From positions 1 through 64,000 of the IMG/VR virus record IMGVR_UViG_2931642416_000001: 64,000 nucleotides of DNA; one strand, 5' to 3'. The notes under the pieces are model-generated. The model was not told the DNA's origin and searched no databases. It saw only the letters and a program-made list of their open reading frames with translations. Positions 11,700-16,736 of the stretch are shown in pieces (position 1 is the first letter of the stretch; each line of letters opens with the position of its first letter). Both the position numbers and the translations under genes were made by a program. This stretch comes from a virus (Duplodnaviria > Caudoviricetes).

Positions 11700-12116
11700 A
11701 TGGGTTCACGTAAACCGCAGGACTACAGCCCCGACGAGTTCGACTCCGTCGTGGAGATGATCCGCAAGGATGCGTCGCTACGCGCGGACATCGAGGCCAT
11801 CACCGGGCAGACGGTCTACGGCAAGACGCCCCGCGAGCTGTTCAACCTCTTCCGCACGATCGAGAAGACGACGGCCGTGCAAGCCGCGGTCGTGAACTAC
11901 GGCCGCGCACGCCAAGCCGTCCGAGAGACCCGAGCCATGCTCGCTGAAGGGTCGCTCGAAGACCTGGCCCCGGCCGACCCGGCGCTGCGCCGTATCCAGG
12001 ACCTGGAAGCGAAGGTCGACGAGCTCAAGAGCACCAACAGCCGGCTGAAGGAGACCAATAAGGCCCTCATGTCCGGCAAGCCGATCAGCGTCATCAAGGG
12101 AGAGGTGGCCTCGTGA
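11700..12116 (+). CDS. Hypothetical protein with C-terminal coiled coil, coupled to the Cas7-like gene
   Basis: AAGGA RBS; GTGA overlap with 12113. Confidence 0.65.
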   Translation: MGSRKPQDYSPDEFDSVVEMIRKDASLRADIEAITGQTVYGKTPRELFNLFRTIEKTTAVQAAVVNYGRARQAVRETRAMLAEGSLEDLAPADPALRRIQDLEAKVDELKSTNSRLKETNKALMSGKPISVIKGEVAS

Positions 12117-12826
12117 GCGCCGTCGACATCTTCGGTACCGCGTCCAGCGTCGCCATCTACCGGGTGCGGCTGCAGGTCCTGGACAAGATCGTGGGCGGGG
12201 TGCCGTCCAGCCCGTCGGTCATCAAGGGTTGGCTGAAGACCCGCATGGAGCTGGGCGACCGGGATCTGCAGGAGCTCACGCAGAAGACGCTGACCGAGCG
12301 GTTCCAGGACCGTCAGCCGTCCGCTGACGAGCTGGCCGACGCGCTGCTGGAATCCGATGCGGCTCCGTCCGTCAACGGGTTCAAGCGCATCCCCGACACG
12401 GGCGAGCTCGCCTACGAGGGACGGTGCATGAAGGCCGCGCTGAAGGAGTTCATGAACTCCGCCTACCCGGGCGTGGAGTGGCCTGGGAAGTCCGCGGTGT
12501 CGAAGGGCTTCCGCAAGGGGCTGATGTCGACGGCGGCCGAGCGCGTGTTCGTCGAGGACATCTACATCGGTCTCGGCGTGAAGGAGCCGACCGGGGTCGA
12601 GGAGCGGATCAAGCACGTGATGACCCCGCAGGGGCCGCGCAGTTCGATCAACCGCGTCGAGTACGTCGACAGGCCGCTGCTGGAGTTCACCCTGAAGGTC
12701 CACGACGACTTCCTGCCGGCCGAGGCGTGGGGCCGCATCTGGGAGCGCGGCGAGGACATCGGCGTCGGCTCAGACCGTGGTCGTTCCGACGGCAAGTTCG
12801 AGCTGGTCTCGTGGGAGCGGATCTGA
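12113..12826 (+). CDS. Stand-alone Cas7/RAMP-superfamily protein
   Basis: RAMP hallmarks: N-terminal strand YRVRLQVLDKIVGG, YEGRCMKAALKE (cf. PGSSLKGALR) and C-terminal Gly-rich loop GEDIGVGSDRGRSDGKFEL. Confidence 0.75.
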   Translation: MSAVDIFGTASSVAIYRVRLQVLDKIVGGVPSSPSVIKGWLKTRMELGDRDLQELTQKTLTERFQDRQPSADELADALLESDAAPSVNGFKRIPDTGELAYEGRCMKAALKEFMNSAYPGVEWPGKSAVSKGFRKGLMSTAAERVFVEDIYIGLGVKEPTGVEERIKHVMTPQGPRSSINRVEYVDRPLLEFTLKVHDDFLPAEAWGRIWERGEDIGVGSDRGRSDGKFELVSWERI

Positions 12827-13239
12827 CATGGCTCTCCTGCACTGCGACGCCGCGCTCGTGGATGCGGCTAGCCCACCCTTGTGCGACAAGCCCAGCCCCG
12901 CCTCACGCACGCCAAGCCACACCGACACCTCGTGCCTAGCCACGCTCCCGCCGACCCGGCCCGCTTCGACGAGCCTCGCCCGCCCGAGCCGTGCACCGCG
13001 TCTGGCCGTACCGACACGCCACGTCACATCTACCCGCTCCACACCCACCCGACATGCCATACCTGGCCGCGCCGTACGCATCCCGACAACCCGACCCTTC
13101 CCCTGTCAGGCCGCCACCGACTTGCCATCCCAGATCTAGCCGGGGGCGACAATCCGGGGCCGCTCCGACCCGTGCAGCGACATGCCACTCCGTTGCCTGT
13201 CCTGACGAGCCGACGGGCCAGACCTGATCTGAGCTCGAC
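12825..13239 (+). repeat. Non-coding array of about 11 (C)GAC-anchored units made of NN(R)CC pentamers; putative guide-RNA array
   Basis: GAC anchors at 12846, 12885, 12924, 12968, 13013, 13051, 13085, 13119, 13148, 13179, 13212 and 13237. Example unit: GAC-acgcc-acgtc-acatc-taccc-gctcc-acacc-caccc-GAC. Transcribed strand is not established. Confidence 0.78.
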
Positions 13240-13259
13240 GCCGGCATAGCGAACGACGA

Positions 13260-13288
13260 AGGGCCGCCCGCACCGGGCGGGCGGCCCT
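13260..13288. terminator. Perfect 12-bp GC hairpin closing the pentamer array
   Basis: AGGGCCGCCCGC-accgg-GCGGGCGGCCCT. Confidence 0.7.
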
Positions 13289-13323
13289 GACAACTAGCAG
13301 ACACGAGAGGAGGGGCAGGCGTC

Positions 13324-13503
13324 ATGACCCCCGAGGAGATGTACGCCGCGGTCGACGCCCGCCGGCAGGAGTTGGACCTGCCTTGGTGGCGGATCGCTAT
13401 CCAGCTCCAGTGCACGTCCGATCAGGTGCGGTGGATGAGGCGCGGCCACGTGTCGAAGCCGTTGCGGGCCCGCGTCGAGGCGTGGCTGGGGGAGGCGTCG
13501 TGA
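13324..13503 (+). CDS. Small HTH-like protein
   Basis: GAGGAGG RBS; MTPEEMYAAVDARRQELDLPWWRIAIQLQ. Confidence 0.55.
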   Translation: MTPEEMYAAVDARRQELDLPWWRIAIQLQCTSDQVRWMRRGHVSKPLRARVEAWLGEAS

Positions 13504-13508
13504 AGACG

Positions 13509-13697
13509 TCAGGAGTCGGCCGACTCCGTCGGAGCCTTGGGCGGGCGGGGAAGCTTGGCGCCTCGCTCGCCCACGTACCAGCGAAGGAACTCGCGGATCA
13601 CGGCGGAACGGTTGCGGTCGCCCACGATCGCGCCGAAGGCAGCCCACAGCTCGTCATCAACCCGGATGGGGCGGTGTCGCGTGTGGGTGTCTTTCAC
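13509..13697 (-). CDS. Ribbon-helix-helix (CopG/ParG-like) regulator
   Basis: RHRPIRVDDELWAAF...RSAVIREFLRWYV. Confidence 0.7.
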   Translation of the reverse strand: MKDTHTRHRPIRVDDELWAAFGAIVGDRNRSAVIREFLRWYVGERGAKLPRPPKAPTESADS

Positions 13698-13711
13698 GAG
13701 GTCAATGGTAG

Positions 13712-13785
13712 GCGCTGTATATACAGCGCTGCTCAGCGCAAGGTTGCCGTGTATATCCACACCCGCTATCGTCGTGTATATCCAC
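13712..13785. promoter_or_regulatory. Operator-like palindrome and direct repeats
   Basis: Perfect 18-bp palindrome GCGCTGTATATACAGCGC (13712-13729); CGTGTATATCCAC twice (13748, 13773). Confidence 0.65.
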
Positions 13786-13847
13786 GCCAAGGGCAAGTGC
13801 CCTGGCAGATAGGCGTTTGTTCACGCGAGACCGGGGGTCTATTTCGC

Positions 13848-14466: not shown

Positions 14467-15480
14467 GTGGCGGGAAGCTACGCCAAGATCTTTAACGAGA
14501 TCTGGGCAGACCCGGACTTCAGGTCCCTCAGCAGGGGCCAGCAGTGGCTGTACTTCGCGCTGATCAGTCAGCCGGAGCTGAACTTCGCCGGCGTGGTGAC
14601 GACGACGGATCGCCGTCTCACGGGTTGCGCCGCGGGGTTCACGGTGGATGAGCTGCGGGCCGATCTGAAGGTGCTGGAGGCCCGCAGGTACGTCGTCGTG
14701 GACGACGAGCATGACGAGATCCTGGTCCGCTCCTACGTGCGCCATGACGGCGCGTGGCGGACCCCGAACGTCCTGACGAGCATCGTGCGGGCGGCGGTCG
14801 GTGTCCGGTCGACCGCCATCCGGGCCACCCTGGCGGAGGAGTTGGCGCGGCTTCCGCTCCAGGAGTTGTCCGGCAAGAAGGCCGAAGACATGCGGGCGTC
14901 GGTCACAAGGGTTATCGAAACCCTTAGGCCAAGGGTTGCCGCAACGGTTCCCGCAAGGGTTAGCCGAAGCGTTACGGCAAGGGTCACGGAGACCCTTCCG
15001 GAAGGGTTGGTTCAACCCTCGGCCCAACCCATTGCCGAACCCATCGTTGTTGTTGCTGTTGTAGGTGAAGAAGTTAAAGACCGTACTTCGGTCACTCTCC
15101 CTCACGATCCTTCGCCTCCTTCGGAGTCGGAGAGTGAGGGCGTTCTCATCGAGCTGCCGACCAAGCCGAAGATCGAGTGCGGCAGCGACCAGGATCCCGA
15201 CTTCGTCGCCTTCTGGACGAACTACCCGCGCAAGGTCGGCAAGCCGTCCGCCCGCACCGCATGGCGCAAGGCGATCAAGGCCGGCGTGGACCCGAAGGTC
15301 GTGATCGAGGCTGCCGCCGCCTACCGGGACGACCCCGAGCGGCGACGTCGCGGCAAGCAGTTCACGCCGCACCCATCCACCTGGCTCAACGATGACCGCT
15401 ACGAGCCTGACGAGGACGACGAAGACGACACCTGGACCTGGAGCGACGTCCAAGAGGCTGCCCCGGCGGAGTTCAACTGA
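14467..15480 (+). CDS. Phage replication initiator / replisome organizer
   Basis: IWADPDFRSLS..QWLYFAL N-terminus; FWTNYPRKVGK...HPSTWLN C-terminal domain; lies upstream of the helicase. Confidence 0.8.
   Translation: MAGSYAKIFNEIWADPDFRSLSRGQQWLYFALISQPELNFAGVVTTTDRRLTGCAAGFTVDELRADLKVLEARRYVVVDDEHDEILVRSYVRHDGAWRTPNVLTSIVRAAVGVRSTAIRATLAEELARLPLQELSGKKAEDMRASVTRVIETLRPRVAATVPARVSRSVTARVTETLPEGLVQPSAQPIAEPIVVVAVVGEEVKDRTSVTLPHDPSPPSESESEGVLIELPTKPKIECGSDQDPDFVAFWTNYPRKVGKPSARTAWRKAIKAGVDPKVVIEAAAAYRDDPERRRRGKQFTPHPSTWLNDDRYEPDEDDEDDTWTWSDVQEAAPAEFN
14906..15045. repeat. About 12-bp periodic iteron-like repeats (putative phage origin)
   Basis: CAAGGGTT/AACCCTT variants at 14906, 14918, 14930, 14942, 14954, 14966, 14978, 14990 and ~15001, followed by a more AT-rich tract. 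Confidence 0.65.
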
Positions 15481-16736
15481 TGAACGACGACTACCGGGCG
15501 CTGCCCCACGACATCGACGCCGAGAAGGCCGCCCTCGGTGCTGCTCTGATCTCGCCGAACGCGGCTCACGCGGTGTTCTCCCACCTGTCGATGGATCACT
15601 TCTACCGACCTCAGCACAGGCTGATCTTCCGCGGCGTCGTCGACCTGTACCGGCGGGGCGAAGCCGTGGACGTGCTCACGGTGCGCGCCGAACTCAACAG
15701 GACCGGGACGCTGAGTCAGGCCGGTGGCGACATGTACCTGTCGGACCTGGCGGCGTTCGTGCCTACCGCTGCGAACGTGGGCTTCTACGTTGCCCGGGTT
15801 CGCGAGCTGGGCACGAAGGCGATCACGATCCAGGAGCTGTCCCGTATCGCGGGGGAGGGCTACAACGAGTCCATCAGCTCCGACGAGATGCTGGTCGCCA
15901 CCGAGGACGCGCTGACCCGGTTTCGCGCGCTGGCGACGGATGAGAACCAGATCGAGGGGTTCTCGACGCTGGGCGCGTTCATCGACGAGGCCGACACCGA
16001 GTACGACTGGCTGATCCCGGGCGTGCTGGAGCGCATGGATCGCGTCATCGTCGTGGCCTCCGAGGGCGCCGGCAAGACGACTCTGGCCCGGCAGATTGCC
16101 GTCCAGCTCGCGGCCGGCGTCCACCCCTTCTCGCCGCACACGCGGATCCCGCCGGCGCGAACCCTGTACATCGACCTGGAGAACCCGCCCGCTCTGGTGC
16201 GGCGCAAGGTGCGCCAGCTCGTCAACCTGGGTCGGGAGCACTCCGGCTGGGACGACGACCGGGCGTGGAGGTGGACCCGGCCGGGCGGCATCGACCTTCG
16301 CAAGCCGCACGACCAGCACCTGGTGGACCGTGTGATCGAGCAGTCTCGCGCCGAGTTCGTCGCGATGGGGCCGCTCTACAAGACGTTCCTCGAAGGCGAC
16401 GCGAAGGCCGAGACCGTCAACGGGCAGGTCGCCCGCATTCTCGACGGGTTCCGTGCCCGTCACGGTGTGGCCCTGTGGCTCGAAACGCACGCCCCGATGG
16501 AGCAGCAGGGCATGCGCTCTCTCCGCCCGATGGGGTCCGGCGTGTGGTCCCGCTGGCCTGAGTTCGGGCTGGCCCTGCGCAAGTCGAAGGACAGGCCAAG
16601 CCGGGTTCATCTGGAGCGGTTCCGCGGCGACCGCGACGAACGCGCCTGGCCGCACCACCTCGAACGCTCCAGCCCCTGGCCGTGGAGCGCCGTCTGGGAC
16701 GGCGGTTTCCCGGTCGAAGAAGCAACCAGCGCTTGA
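15480..16736 (+). CDS. DnaB-like replicative helicase (DnaB N-terminus plus RecA-like AAA_25)
   Basis: LPHDIDAEKAALGA...FYRPQHRLIF; Walker A ASEGAGKTT. Confidence 0.85.
   Translation: MNDDYRALPHDIDAEKAALGAALISPNAAHAVFSHLSMDHFYRPQHRLIFRGVVDLYRRGEAVDVLTVRAELNRTGTLSQAGGDMYLSDLAAFVPTAANVGFYVARVRELGTKAITIQELSRIAGEGYNESISSDEMLVATEDALTRFRALATDENQIEGFSTLGAFIDEADTEYDWLIPGVLERMDRVIVVASEGAGKTTLARQIAVQLAAGVHPFSPHTRIPPARTLYIDLENPPALVRRKVRQLVNLGREHSGWDDDRAWRWTRPGGIDLRKPHDQHLVDRVIEQSRAEFVAMGPLYKTFLEGDAKAETVNGQVARILDGFRARHGVALWLETHAPMEQQGMRSLRPMGSGVWSRWPEFGLALRKSKDRPSRVHLERFRGDRDERAWPHHLERSSPWPWSAVWDGGFPVEEATSA

What the first reader, a model, noticed from the sequence alone, without database searches (positions are those of the whole stretch)
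12825..13239. Two-level grammar of the array: (C)GAC anchors every 25-45 nt with a 5-nt NN(R)CC period inside
Units parse as GAC plus n pentamers. Examples: 12885 aagcc cagcc ccgcc tcacgc acgcc aagcc acacc; 12968 gagcc tcgcc cgccc gagcc gt gcacc gcgtc tggcc gtacc; 13013 acgcc acgtc acatc taccc gctcc acacc caccc; 13051 atgcc atacc tggcc gcgcc gtacgc atccc; 13085 aaccc gaccc ttccc ctgtc aggcc gccacc. Anchor spacings are 39, 39, 44, 45, 38, 34, 34, 29, 31, 33 and 25 nt. Units share the frame but not the variable bases, unlike a slippage microsatellite. A period of 5 also fits poorly with coding. Most units carry one 6-7-nt irregular step. GAC may be a processing or loading signal.
Basis: seen in the sequence. 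Interest (0 to 1): 0.88.

Follow-up and report, generated by a model that had tools for sequence, protein, structure and literature searches.

The report
Phage VIPR-type gapped guide-RNA array
The odd five-letter rhythm is a prophage's array of short guide units for a lone CRISPR-like (Cas7-type) protein, a kind of system first described in 2026, and one guide spells the catalytic motif of the host family's vsr DNA-repair gene.

Summary
In 12825-13239 the lag-5 autocorrelation of C has z=5.6. CGAC is twice as frequent as in shuffles (1 of 2000 reach it).

This is not a new kind of element. It is the guide array of a VIPR-type system (bioRxiv 10.64898/2026.04.26.720920). The upstream 237-aa gene folds as a Cas7/Csm3 RAMP (pLDDT 91; Foldseek E 1.7e-7). 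The same punctuated array follows its homologue in 26 of 28 related loci.

Each unit has n variable dinucleotides held between n+1 fixed triplets, so its length is 5n+3. GAC is the special end triplet.

The published one-base-skip code holds here:
- Window unit 1 spells the Vsr motif VFVDGCF and matches 41 of 101 host-family genomes exactly, against 1 control site.
- A sister-array unit spells SNF2 helicase motif VI, with 72 hits against 4 for the control.

Two points are unusual. The canonical GGY/NN reading lies on the strand opposite the gene, and the units have no tails. The transcribed strand and any processing at GAC were not tested. This scan holds 517 earlier VIPR-type notes on other DNA.

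The parts
11700..12116 (+). 138-aa coiled-coil partner gene whose stop overlaps the RAMP gene start (GTGA). Candidate accessory (vap-like) gene.
   Evidence: ORF. It has no Pfam, PHROG or PADLOC family. tblastn finds a homologue ending at the RAMP gene start in 22 of 28 related loci, at 41-62% identity.
12113..12826 (+). 237-aa stand-alone RAMP (Cas7/Csm3-like) gene, the Vipr-type protein of the locus.
   Evidence: AlphaFold2 with an 82-row alignment gives pLDDT 91.2 and pTM 0.85. The top Foldseek PDB hits are Csm3, type VII Cas7, Cmr and gRAMP chains, with E from 1.7e-7, probability 1.0 and TMq 0.40-0.49. The profile weakly touches the Csm4 G-loop (E 0.24). The family has 895 clusters at 50% identity with E<=1e-3.
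12846..12873 (.). Conserved array-end hairpin: GAC, stem GCCGC (12849-12853), loop, stem GCGGC (12864-12868), then TAGCC. It is a 5' leader if the + strand is transcribed, and a 3' tail or terminator if the - strand is transcribed.
   Evidence: A regular expression finds it in the window and in 24 of 27 loci. The fifth stem pair is C:G, T:A or G:C. The GAC-to-GGCTAG distance takes the values 14, 15, 17, 19, 20, 21 and 26, which are not all in one reading frame.
12885..12923 (.). Unit 1: GAC AAgcc CAgcc CCgcc TCacg(c) ACgcc AAgcc ACacc. Read on the - strand with one base skipped, its NN string gives GT.TT.GT.GA.GG.TG.TT = V F V D G C F, the core motif of Vsr endonuclease.
   Evidence: The NN string is shared with L020, L014 and L006, and partly with L004. 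Exact matches occur in 41 of 101 host-family genomes (42 sites) against 1 control site. All 12 of 12 loci examined lie in frame inside Vsr ORFs. All 3 of 3 ORFs tested match Pfam PF03852. Among the 114 IMG/VR hits listed, 20 carry VFVDGCFWH.
12924..13239 (.). Further units, bounded by GAC at 12924, (12953), 12968, 13013, 13051, 13085, (13093), 13119, 13148, (13167), 13179, 13212 and 13237. The periodicity decays after about 13190.
   Evidence: Parse and GAC positions. Targets were sought for three units without a clear result: 13013 (4 hits against 22 control), 12968 (13 against 10) and 13051 (14 against 0, but spread over unrelated genes).
13261..13287 (.). G+C-rich 10-bp hairpin (GGGCCGCCCG / CGGGCGGCCC) between the distal end of the array and the next gene's ribosome-binding site. 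It looks like a terminator but has no T run on the + strand.
   Evidence: Read from the sequence. The own-genome search returns an inverted self-match at 13260-13288. The consensus terminator scan found none. Similar hairpins follow the array in L004, L006, L014 and Mae-JY09, and lie between the gene and the array in L004, L007 and L009.

Best explanation
The stretch is the guide-RNA array of a prophage-borne VIPR-type system. VIPR stands for Viral Interference Programmable Repeat: a lone Cas7-like 'Vipr' protein plus RNAs built of five-base repeats.

Module. The conserved module is a partner gene (11700-12116), a RAMP gene (12113-12826) and the array.

Unit structure. Each unit is n variable dinucleotides (NN) held between n+1 fixed triplets, so its length is 5n+3, with n mostly 5 to 8.
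- On the gene strand a unit reads GAC NN GCC NN ... NN GCC.
- On the other strand it reads GGC NN ... GGC NN GUC.
There are no tails between units. The whole array has a single conserved hairpin, at the end next to the gene.

Inferred mechanism, by analogy with the SUSP1 structures. One protein protomer binds each pentamer and hides the fixed triplet. The exposed NN pairs then read double-stranded DNA as NN-skip-NN-skip, which places NN on codon positions 1-2 and the skipped base on the wobble position. The complex would sit on the target gene and block its transcription.

Shown here:
- the RAMP fold;
- the grammar and its conservation across loci;
- selection acting on NN rather than on the triplets;
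- in-frame, one-base-skip matches of whole units to conserved catalytic motifs.

Inferred, not shown:
- that the array is transcribed, and from which strand;
- that the protein binds it;
- that the RNA is cut at the GAC/GUC triplet;
- that targets are silenced.

My estimate for the strand is about 60% for the strand opposite the gene (the canonical GGY/NN reading) and about 40% for the gene strand (a GCC/NN variant).
For: 1. Protein. The model has pLDDT 91.2. Its top Foldseek PDB hits are Cas7-family RAMPs (Csm3, type VII Cas7, Cmr, gRAMP), with E from 1.7e-7 and probability 1.0.

2. Linkage. A script parsed the array directly downstream of the homologue in 25 of 27 loci. I read it by eye in Microcystis phage Mae-JY09, whose protein is 34% identical.

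3. Pentamer profile over 2225 pentamers: positions 1-2 are near uniform, position 3 is G in 0.49, position 4 is C in 0.75 and position 5 is C in 0.94. The complement is GG-Y-NN, the published vrRNA repeat.

4. NN carries the selected information. Among 110,473 unit alignments, 21 reach P<1e-6 on NN identity, where 0.11 are expected. In the 6 that come from non-orthologous arrays, NN identity is 0.91 while identity at position 3 is 0.47 and at position 4 is 0.53. Background is 0.32 for position 3 and 0.72 for positions 4 and 5 pooled.

5. Code test 1. The 10-pentamer unit shared by L004, L012 and L023, read with one base skipped, gives 72 exact hits in IMG/VR against 4 for the same pattern read backwards.
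- 60 of the 72 lie in frame on SNF2 motif VI (EQRxGRIHRxGQ), and 57 also show the upstream PW(N/S).
- 4 of 4 ORFs tested match Pfam SNF2-rel_dom and Helicase_C.

6. Code test 2. Window unit 1 matches the Vsr motif (figures given under parts).

7. Code test 3, weaker. The unit shared by L004 and L023 spells KPAW(I/V)VD just before GQQR in two paralogous DpdB genes (PADLOC E 1e-144 and 1e-147).

8. No self-target. None of the 16 proviruses held carries SNF2 motif VI.

9. The irregular 6-base step in unit 1 is absent in L006, yet the NN order and the contiguous target are kept.
Against: - No RNA evidence at all: no RNA run was listed.
- The canonical GGY/NN reading is on the strand opposite the RAMP gene in every locus read. 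In the reference phage SUSP1 all 21 GGY-pattern hits lie on the vipr gene's own strand.
- In several loci the array is wedged between + strand genes with no visible room for a - strand promoter. The downstream genes are not conserved.
- My family profile finds nothing in SUSP1, so kinship to the published Vipr rests on fold and locus logic, not on sequence.
- Position 3 is a purine in 36% of pentamers on the GGY reading, whereas the SUSP1 pocket excludes purines.
- Most target searches were blank or ambiguous:
  - 132 clean units against 1.17 Mb of related proviruses showed no excess over controls;
  - the units at 13013 and 12968 and sister family 2 were at control level;
  - the unit at 13051 hit unrelated housekeeping genes.
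- The 42 vsr sites are homologous copies, so they count as one independent event. By my own base-composition estimate, which is not a tool result, a chance match is about 0.006 per genome before allowing for roughly nine units tested.
Confidence: 0.82

Rival explanations
1. Same system, but the gene strand is the one transcribed. The array is cotranscribed with the partner and RAMP genes. The RNA repeat is then G-C-C/NN, which differs from canonical G-G-Y/NN only at position 2. GAC/NN is the first repeat of each unit, and the hairpin is a 5' leader.
For: - The array sits downstream on the gene's strand in every locus read.
- It often runs straight into the next + strand gene's ribosome-binding site, and downstream genes vary from locus to locus.
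- A hairpin follows the array on that strand in the window, L004, L006, L014 and Mae-JY09.
- SUSP1 arrays run in the same direction as vipr.
- Non-canonical triplets, including GAC/NN and CAC/NN, are reported for 21 of 99 period-5 clusters (passages of 10.64898/2026.10.21.760802).
Against: - The repeat is the exact reverse complement of the commonest canonical repeat, GGC/NN, which would be a coincidence on this reading.
- A 350-1000-nt untranslated C-rich, G-poor RNA is the classic substrate of Rho termination. That is established knowledge, not tested here.
- In L004, L007 and L009 a strong hairpin sits between the gene's stop and the array, and in L007 and L009 it leaves too little room for a promoter.
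Confidence: 0.33
2. A Rho-utilisation or transcription-insulator region. On this reading the C-rich, G-poor untranslated stretch merely ends the early operon, and the periodicity has no coding role.
For: The stretch is 45% C and 25% G on the sense strand. It lies at the end of an operon and before a hairpin.
Against: This does not explain any of the following:
- the period of 5;
- the 5n+3 units;
- conservation confined to the NN positions;
- the in-frame gapped matches to Vsr and SNF2 motifs;
- the strict linkage to a RAMP gene down to 34% protein identity.
Confidence: 0.04
3. A decayed or unusual protein-coding region: the 120-122-aa proline- and threonine-rich ORFs at 12777-13139 and 12881-13249.
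For: Open frames exist on the + strand. In many loci an ATG lies just before the leader, in the frame that reads ...DA..D(T/A)AS.
Against: - There is no lag-3 signal (z=-1.9).
- Stop codons are rare in any C-rich sequence, so open frames are expected by chance.
- The leader loop lengths 15, 19 and 21 break the frame, and L013 has TAG in that frame.
- Array lengths range from 270 to 1013 nt, and the sequences are unrelated outside the repeat frame.
Confidence: 0.02
4. A DNA-level element such as a replication origin or iteron field, or a protein-binding array. It lies just upstream of the replication module (initiator at 14467-15480, DnaB at 15477-16736).
For: Its position is next to the replication genes. 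The short motif CGAC is repeated.
Against: - In other loci the array travels with the RAMP gene, not with replication genes. Downstream genes differ: the 59-aa ORF has 0 of 28 hits and endonuclease VII has 1 of 28.
- Iterons do not carry hypervariable dinucleotides that spell other genes' motifs.
Confidence: 0.02

Closest known systems
VIPR systems (Vipr protein + vrRNA). Reference: type II of Escherichia phage SUSP1, bioRxiv 10.64898/2026.04.26.720920. I read the outline, the whole Results and methods sections 18 and 20. For the structures paper 10.64898/2026.04.26.720927 I read sections 5 and 6.
   Same: - A lone small RAMP protein carried on a provirus.
- A partner gene beside it.
- An adjacent non-CRISPR array with a 5-nt period, made of a fixed triplet plus a hypervariable NN.
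- The NN read against DNA with one base skipped, the skipped base falling on the wobble position.
- Targets found on either strand.
- No self-targets found.
   Different: - The GGY strand is opposite to the gene. In SUSP1 it is the gene's own strand.
- Units have 5-8 repeats, against 9-16 in the paper's main text.
- There is no 3' tail or pseudoknot after each unit. SUSP1 has (GGYNN)n, then GG, then a tail, and each vrRNA has its own upstream element.
- The protein is 237 aa, against about 195 aa.
- No sequence-level match to the SUSP1 genome.
'Staggered vrRNA arrays with overlapping vrRNAs' (legend of fig. S18 of the same preprint; legend only, the figure and supplements are closed)
   Same: [quoted passage not shown]
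   Different: The legend speaks of positions that overlap by 1 nt. I could not see the figure, so I cannot say whether it shows the GAC/GUC-closed 5n+3 units found here, or which VIPR type this clade belongs to.
Non-canonical VIPR-like arrays found by entropy periodicity (bioRxiv 10.64898/2026.10.21.760802; passages only)
   Same: Arrays with a 5-nt period next to Vipr-like folds. Fixed triplets other than GGY occur, for example GAC/NN and CAC/NN.
   Different: In the passages I read, GCC/NN is not among the examples named, and no punctuated two-level grammar is described.
Class 1 CRISPR Cas7 backbone with crRNA (type III Csm3, type VII Cas7; PDB 9g9g, 6ifl, 8z4l)
   Same: The fold of the protein. 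One protomer per fixed RNA step, with a thumb that breaks the guide-target duplex at regular intervals (as stated in the VIPR papers).
   Different: There is no CRISPR repeat-spacer array, and there are no other cas genes among the neighbours I annotated. The step is 5 nt with 2 bases read, not 6 nt with 5 bases read.
Wobble-aligned vrRNA aimed at active-site codons (SUSP1 vrRNA4 on a satellite recombinase; bioRxiv 10.64898/2026.10.15.759431, passages only)
   Same: The guide footprint lies on codon positions 1-2 of a catalytic motif, so that escape requires an amino-acid change.
   Different: Here the motifs belong to Vsr, an SNF2 helicase and DpdB. The vsr copies examined sit in an ordinary chromosomal context (HAD hydrolase, DUF6912), not in a satellite or a rival phage.

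Membership tests
VIPR system | Stand-alone RAMP-fold (Vipr) protein with an RRM core, a glycine-rich loop and a thumb | tested here: met
   The model has pLDDT 91.2. Foldseek matches Csm3 and other Cas7-family chains with E from 1.7e-7 and probability 1.0. The C-terminal GxGxDRGRSDG loop is invariant or nearly so in the alignments and weakly matches the Csm4 G-loop. The thumb was not inspected separately.
VIPR system | Sequence or structure kinship to published Vipr proteins (X1U2U4, SUSP1 Vipr) | tested here: inconclusive
   The family profile finds nothing in the SUSP1 genome. No Vipr structure appeared among the matches listed from the PDB copy, which holds entries released up to 2026-04-08.
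VIPR system | Adjacent array of tandem pentamers made of a conserved triplet and a hypervariable NN (GGY/NN or a related consensus) | tested here: met
   Lag-5 z=5.6. Profile over 2225 pentamers. Arrays parsed in 25 of 27 loci, plus Mae-JY09 read by eye.
VIPR system | The RNA strand carries GGY/NN and is expressed as small RNAs bound by the protein | not testable with these tools
   No RNA run was listed. GGY/NN lies on the strand opposite the gene, unlike in SUSP1.
VIPR system | NN dinucleotides specify DNA targets with one base skipped between them | tested here: met
   SNF2 motif VI: 72 hits against 4 for the control, 60 of 72 in frame. Vsr: 42 sites against 1, and 12 of 12 in frame. Other skip lengths were compared only in the small local search, which showed no signal for any rule.
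VIPR system | Invariant structured 3' tail after each repeat tract (type II) | tested here: not met
   Units abut one another, separated only by the GAC/GUC triplet. There is one conserved hairpin per array. The preprint itself describes tail-less 'staggered' arrays in other types, so this feature excludes type II, not VIPR as a whole.
VIPR system | Two-gene locus with an accessory vap gene, mostly viral or proviral | tested here: met
   The record is a provirus. The 138-aa gene is conserved and coupled upstream in 22 of 28 loci. Homology to the named vap1-6 genes was not tested because I had no sequences for them.
CRISPR-Cas (class 1) | Repeat-spacer array and a multi-gene cas operon | tested here: not met
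   There are no direct repeats, no Rfam CRISPR hit and no cas families among the neighbouring genes.

The most novel reading that the evidence does not exclude
A large actinobacterial clade of VIPR-type systems (895 protein clusters) uses a distinct array architecture:
- it is transcribed convergently with its own vipr gene;
- it is made of tail-less mini-guides of 5-8 repeats, each closed by a GUC triplet;
- it ends in one shared hairpin.

The prophages aim these guides not only at rival mobile elements but also at host chromosomal and defence genes: the catalytic motif of vsr in the window, and SNF2 helicase and DpdB motifs in sister arrays. This would amount to RNA-guided silencing of host DNA repair and defence by a resident prophage.
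Probability: 0.3. Interest if true: 0.65.

Novelty: new member of a known kind. Interest (0 to 1): 0.45.

Why it matters
It shows that the finding is a working-looking example of the RNA-guided VIPR class described in 2026, not an unknown code.

It extends that class to prophages of Streptosporangiaceae-type actinomycetes, with a compact, punctuated array layout.

Three points could be useful to people who work on VIPR:
1. The 5n+3 rule (n NN between n+1 triplets, with the last triplet altered at position 2) gives a simple way to find guide boundaries in tail-less arrays.
2. The fixed triplets drift while NN is conserved between distant arrays. This is a cheap test for functional guides that needs only sequence.
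3. A leading guide matches a chromosomal vsr gene in about 40% of the host-family genomes sampled. That hints that prophages may also use such guides on host genes.

None of this changes the concept of the class, and the strand and the processing remain open.

Tried and rejected
Searches that found nothing
- Tandem Repeats Finder: 0 rows.
- Rfam at E<=10: only noise, best E 0.85.
- Consensus promoter and terminator scans: 0 each.
- blastn of 12100-13600 against 50,697 phage records: no match.
- PDB sequence search with the single protein: only a TatB chain at E 1.4.
- RNA runs: no RNA holder was listed, so read laying was never used.

Protein structure and wider relatives
- A single-sequence fold was useless (pLDDT 35). 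I repeated it with an alignment.
- Reaching distant loci mostly failed. P0146 and P0218 found no viral locus. tblastn of these two against the phage records found only Mae-JY09.
- A phylum-wide sample had the gene in 1 of 401 genomes, and that one was the seed genome.

Target searches without a clear result
- A local search of 132 clean units against 16 related proviruses (1.17 Mb, arrays masked). With one base skipped, 15 of 132 units had a perfect hit. The comparisons were 7, 20 and 13 for skips of 0, 2 and 3, 18 for the pattern read backwards, and 14 for shuffled NN. There is no enrichment.
- Unit at 13013: 4 sites in 401 genomes, against about 22 control sites by my count of the table.
- Unit at 12968, assuming the 2-nt irregular step keeps phase: 13 against 10 control sites, allowing up to 1 mismatch.
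- Unit at 13051 (12 specified bases): 14 sites against 0. They fall in citrate synthase-like, HisRS-like, kinase-like and other ORFs, named by my reading of the motifs. I treat these as chance matches multiplied by homology.
- Sister family 2: 6 against 5.
- Sister family 3: 4 against 2. It is suggestive only because two of the hits are DpdB paralogues.
- The SNF2 pattern lies nowhere near that DpdB island in G001, even allowing up to 2 mismatches. The idea that both guides aim at one Dpd island is therefore not supported.

Strand of the RNA
- The hairpin covaries only through Watson-Crick pairs, so it cannot give the strand.
- T runs by the hairpins are inconsistent.
- I saw no convincing promoter on either strand. 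This was by eye and is not a result.

Other
- In six orthologous array pairs, substitutions at positions 1-5 number 37, 58, 62, 41 and 3. The pairs are not independent, so this is suggestive only.
- The coding, Rho-site and origin readings are rejected for the reasons given under rivals.
- Supplementary files of the VIPR papers are closed. Their tables may already list this clade, its type and its array form.
Full report
WHAT IS THERE

The window is part of a 72.9-kb provirus with 65-70% G+C. Homologues of its genes are named from Nonomuraea, Streptosporangium, Microbispora, Actinomadura and related genera. The finding lies in a gap of about 500 nt between a 237-aa gene (12113-12826, +) and a 59-aa gene (13324-13503, +). 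The neighbours upstream are a WhiB gene and a 138-aa coiled-coil gene whose stop overlaps the start of the 237-aa gene. Downstream lie an Arc-like repressor on the other strand, an endonuclease VII, a replication initiator and a DnaB helicase.

CHECK OF THE OBSERVATION

The 415 bases hold 187 C and 103 G. Against dinucleotide-preserving shuffles, the lag-5 autocorrelation has z=5.6 for C and z=5.1 for G. There are echoes at lags 10 and 15, and lag 3 gives nothing.

CC followed by CC five bases later occurs 30 times against 12.9+-3.2 (0 of 2000 shuffles reach it). CGAC occurs 15 times against 7.1+-2.1 (1 of 2000). No other part of the 64 kb has as strong a lag-5 signal.

Tandem Repeats Finder and Rfam find nothing.

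THE GRAMMAR IS A FAMILY TRAIT

The 237-aa protein has 350 relatives at E<=1e-3 in the 90%-identity collection and 895 clusters at 50% identity. None carries a functional name.

I fetched 27 related loci (three are duplicates) and one annotated phage, Mae-JY09, whose protein is 34% identical. A script parsed the same C-rich, CGAC-punctuated pentamer array directly downstream of the gene, on its strand, in 25 of the 27 loci. By eye, Mae-JY09 has it too. L027 has it after a spacer, and L028 is unclear.

Over 23 distinct arrays (2225 pentamers, 308 anchors):
- positions 1 and 2 are close to uniform;
- position 3 is G in 0.49;
- position 4 is C in 0.75;
- position 5 is C in 0.94.

Units hold 6 pentamers (81 units), 7 (55), 5 (42) or 8 (32). 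The unit length is 3 mod 5 in 146 of 285 units and 4 mod 5 in 84. Raw CGAC spacings peak at 33, 28, 38, 39 and 43.

A conserved hairpin (GAC GCCGN, loop, N'CGGC TAGCC) sits between the gene and the first unit in the window and in 24 of 27 loci. Its fifth pair is C:G, T:A or G:C. The loop lengths are not all in one reading frame, which argues against a coding reading.

The 138-aa gene is conserved next to the 237-aa gene in 22 of 28 loci, while the downstream genes are not conserved. The mobile module is therefore partner gene, RAMP gene and array.

WHAT THE PROTEIN IS

With an 82-row alignment, AlphaFold2 gives pLDDT 91.2. The best Foldseek matches in the PDB are Cas7-family RAMP subunits: Csm3 of type III-A, type VII Cas7, a type III-B Cmr chain and gRAMP. 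Their E-values start at 1.7e-7 with probability 1.0. Pfam, PHROGs and PADLOC have no family for it.

THE KNOWN CLASS

Sister notes on this stretch used the word VIPR. A literature search then found three preprints from 2026. The main texts I read make the following statements:
- VIPR systems are mostly viral.
- They consist of a lone ancestral RAMP (Vipr), an accessory vap gene and vrRNAs made of GGY/NN pentamers.
- One protomer binds one repeat and hides GGY.
- The NN pairs read double-stranded DNA with one base skipped, usually the wobble base, on either strand.
- There are seven types, including 'staggered arrays' without tails.

A fourth preprint reports 99 clusters with a 5-nt period, 21 of them with other fixed triplets such as GAC/NN.

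For comparison I located the SUSP1 locus. All 21 GGY-pattern hits lie on the strand of the vipr gene. Each vrRNA there is (GGYNN)n followed by GG and a structured tail.

TESTING THE CODE HERE

First test: is the information in the NN positions? Among 110,473 ungapped unit alignments between arrays, 21 have NN identity with P<1e-6, where 0.11 are expected. In the 6 that come from non-orthologous arrays, NN identity is 0.91 while position 3 is 0.47 and position 4 is 0.53 identical. Orthologous arrays give 0.87 and 0.89 at those two positions. The triplets have drifted while NN was kept.

Second test: a unit shared by L004, L012 and L023. It has ten pentamers and is bounded by GAC on both sides. 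Read as NN-skip, it was scanned in IMG/VR.
- It gave 72 exact hits, against 4 for the same pattern read backwards.
- 60 of the 72 lie on (E/D)QRxGRI(H/Q)RxG(Q/N/S/R), with NN on codon positions 1-2.
- 57 also show the upstream PW(N/S).
- 4 of 4 ORFs tested are SNF2-related helicases.
- None of the 16 proviruses I hold has that motif.

Third test: the window's first unit (12885-12923). It shares its NN string with L020, L014 and L006.
- Its pattern is exact in 41 of 101 host-family genomes (42 sites), against 1 control site.
- 12 of 12 loci examined place it in frame on VFVDGCF of an ORF of about 150 aa.
- 3 of 3 ORFs tested are Pfam Vsr (PF03852); the two whose neighbouring ORFs I scanned lie beside HAD-hydrolase genes, one also beside a DUF6912 gene.
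- This match reads on the strand opposite to the SNF2 one, so both target strands occur, as published for VIPR.
- The 6-base step inside this unit is absent in L006 without any change in the NN order, and the target is contiguous. The 'irregular steps' therefore sit in the fixed part and do not shift the code.

Fourth test, weaker: a unit of L004 and L023 spells KPAW(I/V)VD in front of GQQR in two DpdB paralogues that lie in a region of lower G+C (0.58) in one genome.

RESULTS AGAINST THE READING, OR EMPTY

- Most searches gave nothing: the local search of 132 units against 1.17 Mb, the units at 13013 and 12968, and sister family 2.
- The unit at 13051 hit several unrelated conserved genes. 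This shows how a chance match in a conserved gene is multiplied by homology.
- The same caveat applies to vsr. The 42 sites are one event, and by my own composition estimate a chance match is about 0.006 per genome. I hold the vsr target at about 80%. The general code I hold as well supported, because of the 17-base SNF2 match and the NN-specific conservation.
- An earlier follow-up in this scan that claimed motif-directed guides was later partly withdrawn. That is a further reason for caution about how broad the targeting is.

HOW THE TWO LEVELS FIT TOGETHER

A unit of length 5n+3 is n dinucleotides flanked by n+1 triplets.
- On the gene strand it reads GAC NN GCC NN ... NN GCC.
- On the other strand it reads GGC NN ... 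GGC NN GUC.

The 'anchor' is therefore the terminal triplet, altered at its middle base, where one unit abuts the next. SUSP1 vrRNAs likewise end their tract with an extra GG before the tail. Whether the RNA is cut there, or the filaments simply end there, is not known.

WHICH STRAND

For the strand opposite the gene:
- the repeat is then the canonical GGC/NN;
- the hairpin becomes a 3' end element;
- in L004, L007 and L009 a strong hairpin lies between the convergent gene and the array;
- a long C-rich untranslated RNA would invite Rho termination (established knowledge).

For the gene strand:
- the orientation and tight packing are constant;
- hairpins lie distal to the array;
- SUSP1 sets the precedent;
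- GCC differs from GGY only at position 2, as does the reported GAC/NN variant.

I put the strand opposite the gene at about 60%. No RNA run was listed.

VERDICT

The element is a real, probably functional guide array of a known class (VIPR), in a clade whose array layout may match the 'staggered' form of the preprint. I could not see that figure or the supplements.

It is a new member of a known kind, with an unusual gene-to-array orientation and a host repair gene among the likely targets. This scan has already noted VIPR-type loci 517 times on other DNA.

Noticed in passing
window 13690-13800: Just upstream of the Arc-like repressor gene (13509-13796, - strand) lie a palindrome, GCGCTGTATATACAGCGC, and two direct copies of GTGTATATCCAC. 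They look like operator sites of the prophage's immunity switch.
   Followed up: no
L008 3960-4030 (about 140-210 nt downstream of the gene end): One array carries AAGCC repeated about eleven times in a row. A single pentamer seems to have expanded by slippage, which suggests one way such arrays may grow.
   Followed up: no
distal array ends: window 13179-13205; also L003, L016, L017, L020, L022, L025: Many arrays end with a unit that begins GACATGCC(T/A)(T/C)... just before the next gene's ribosome-binding site. This could be a conserved last (or first) guide, or a signal for starting or ending the array transcript.
   Followed up: partly
L004, L017, L019-L022, L025: the ~45-60 nt between the gene-proximal hairpin and the leader: These loci share a short conserved element containing ACTGTA(C/A)CC between the RAMP gene's terminator-like hairpin and the array hairpin. 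Its role is unknown; it could be a promoter or part of the tail.
   Followed up: no
PP395641.1 (Microcystis phage Mae-JY09) 37713-38976 = L031 2501-3764: A phage recorded as infecting Microcystis carries the same RAMP gene and C-rich punctuated array at the very end of its linear record. The stretch I read looks G+C-rich.
   Followed up: partly
G001 contig C51 406-410 kb (L321, L322): Two DpdB paralogues (PADLOC E 1e-144 and 1e-147) lie 2.4 kb apart in a region of 58% G+C in a Nonomuraea genome. This is probably a Dpd (7-deazaguanine) defence island. A guide from sister arrays matches both paralogues.
   Followed up: partly
window 13324-13503: The 59-aa ORF with a strong ribosome-binding site after the array has no homologue in any of the 28 related loci. 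It converges on the Arc-like gene with a gap of only 5 nt.
   Followed up: partly
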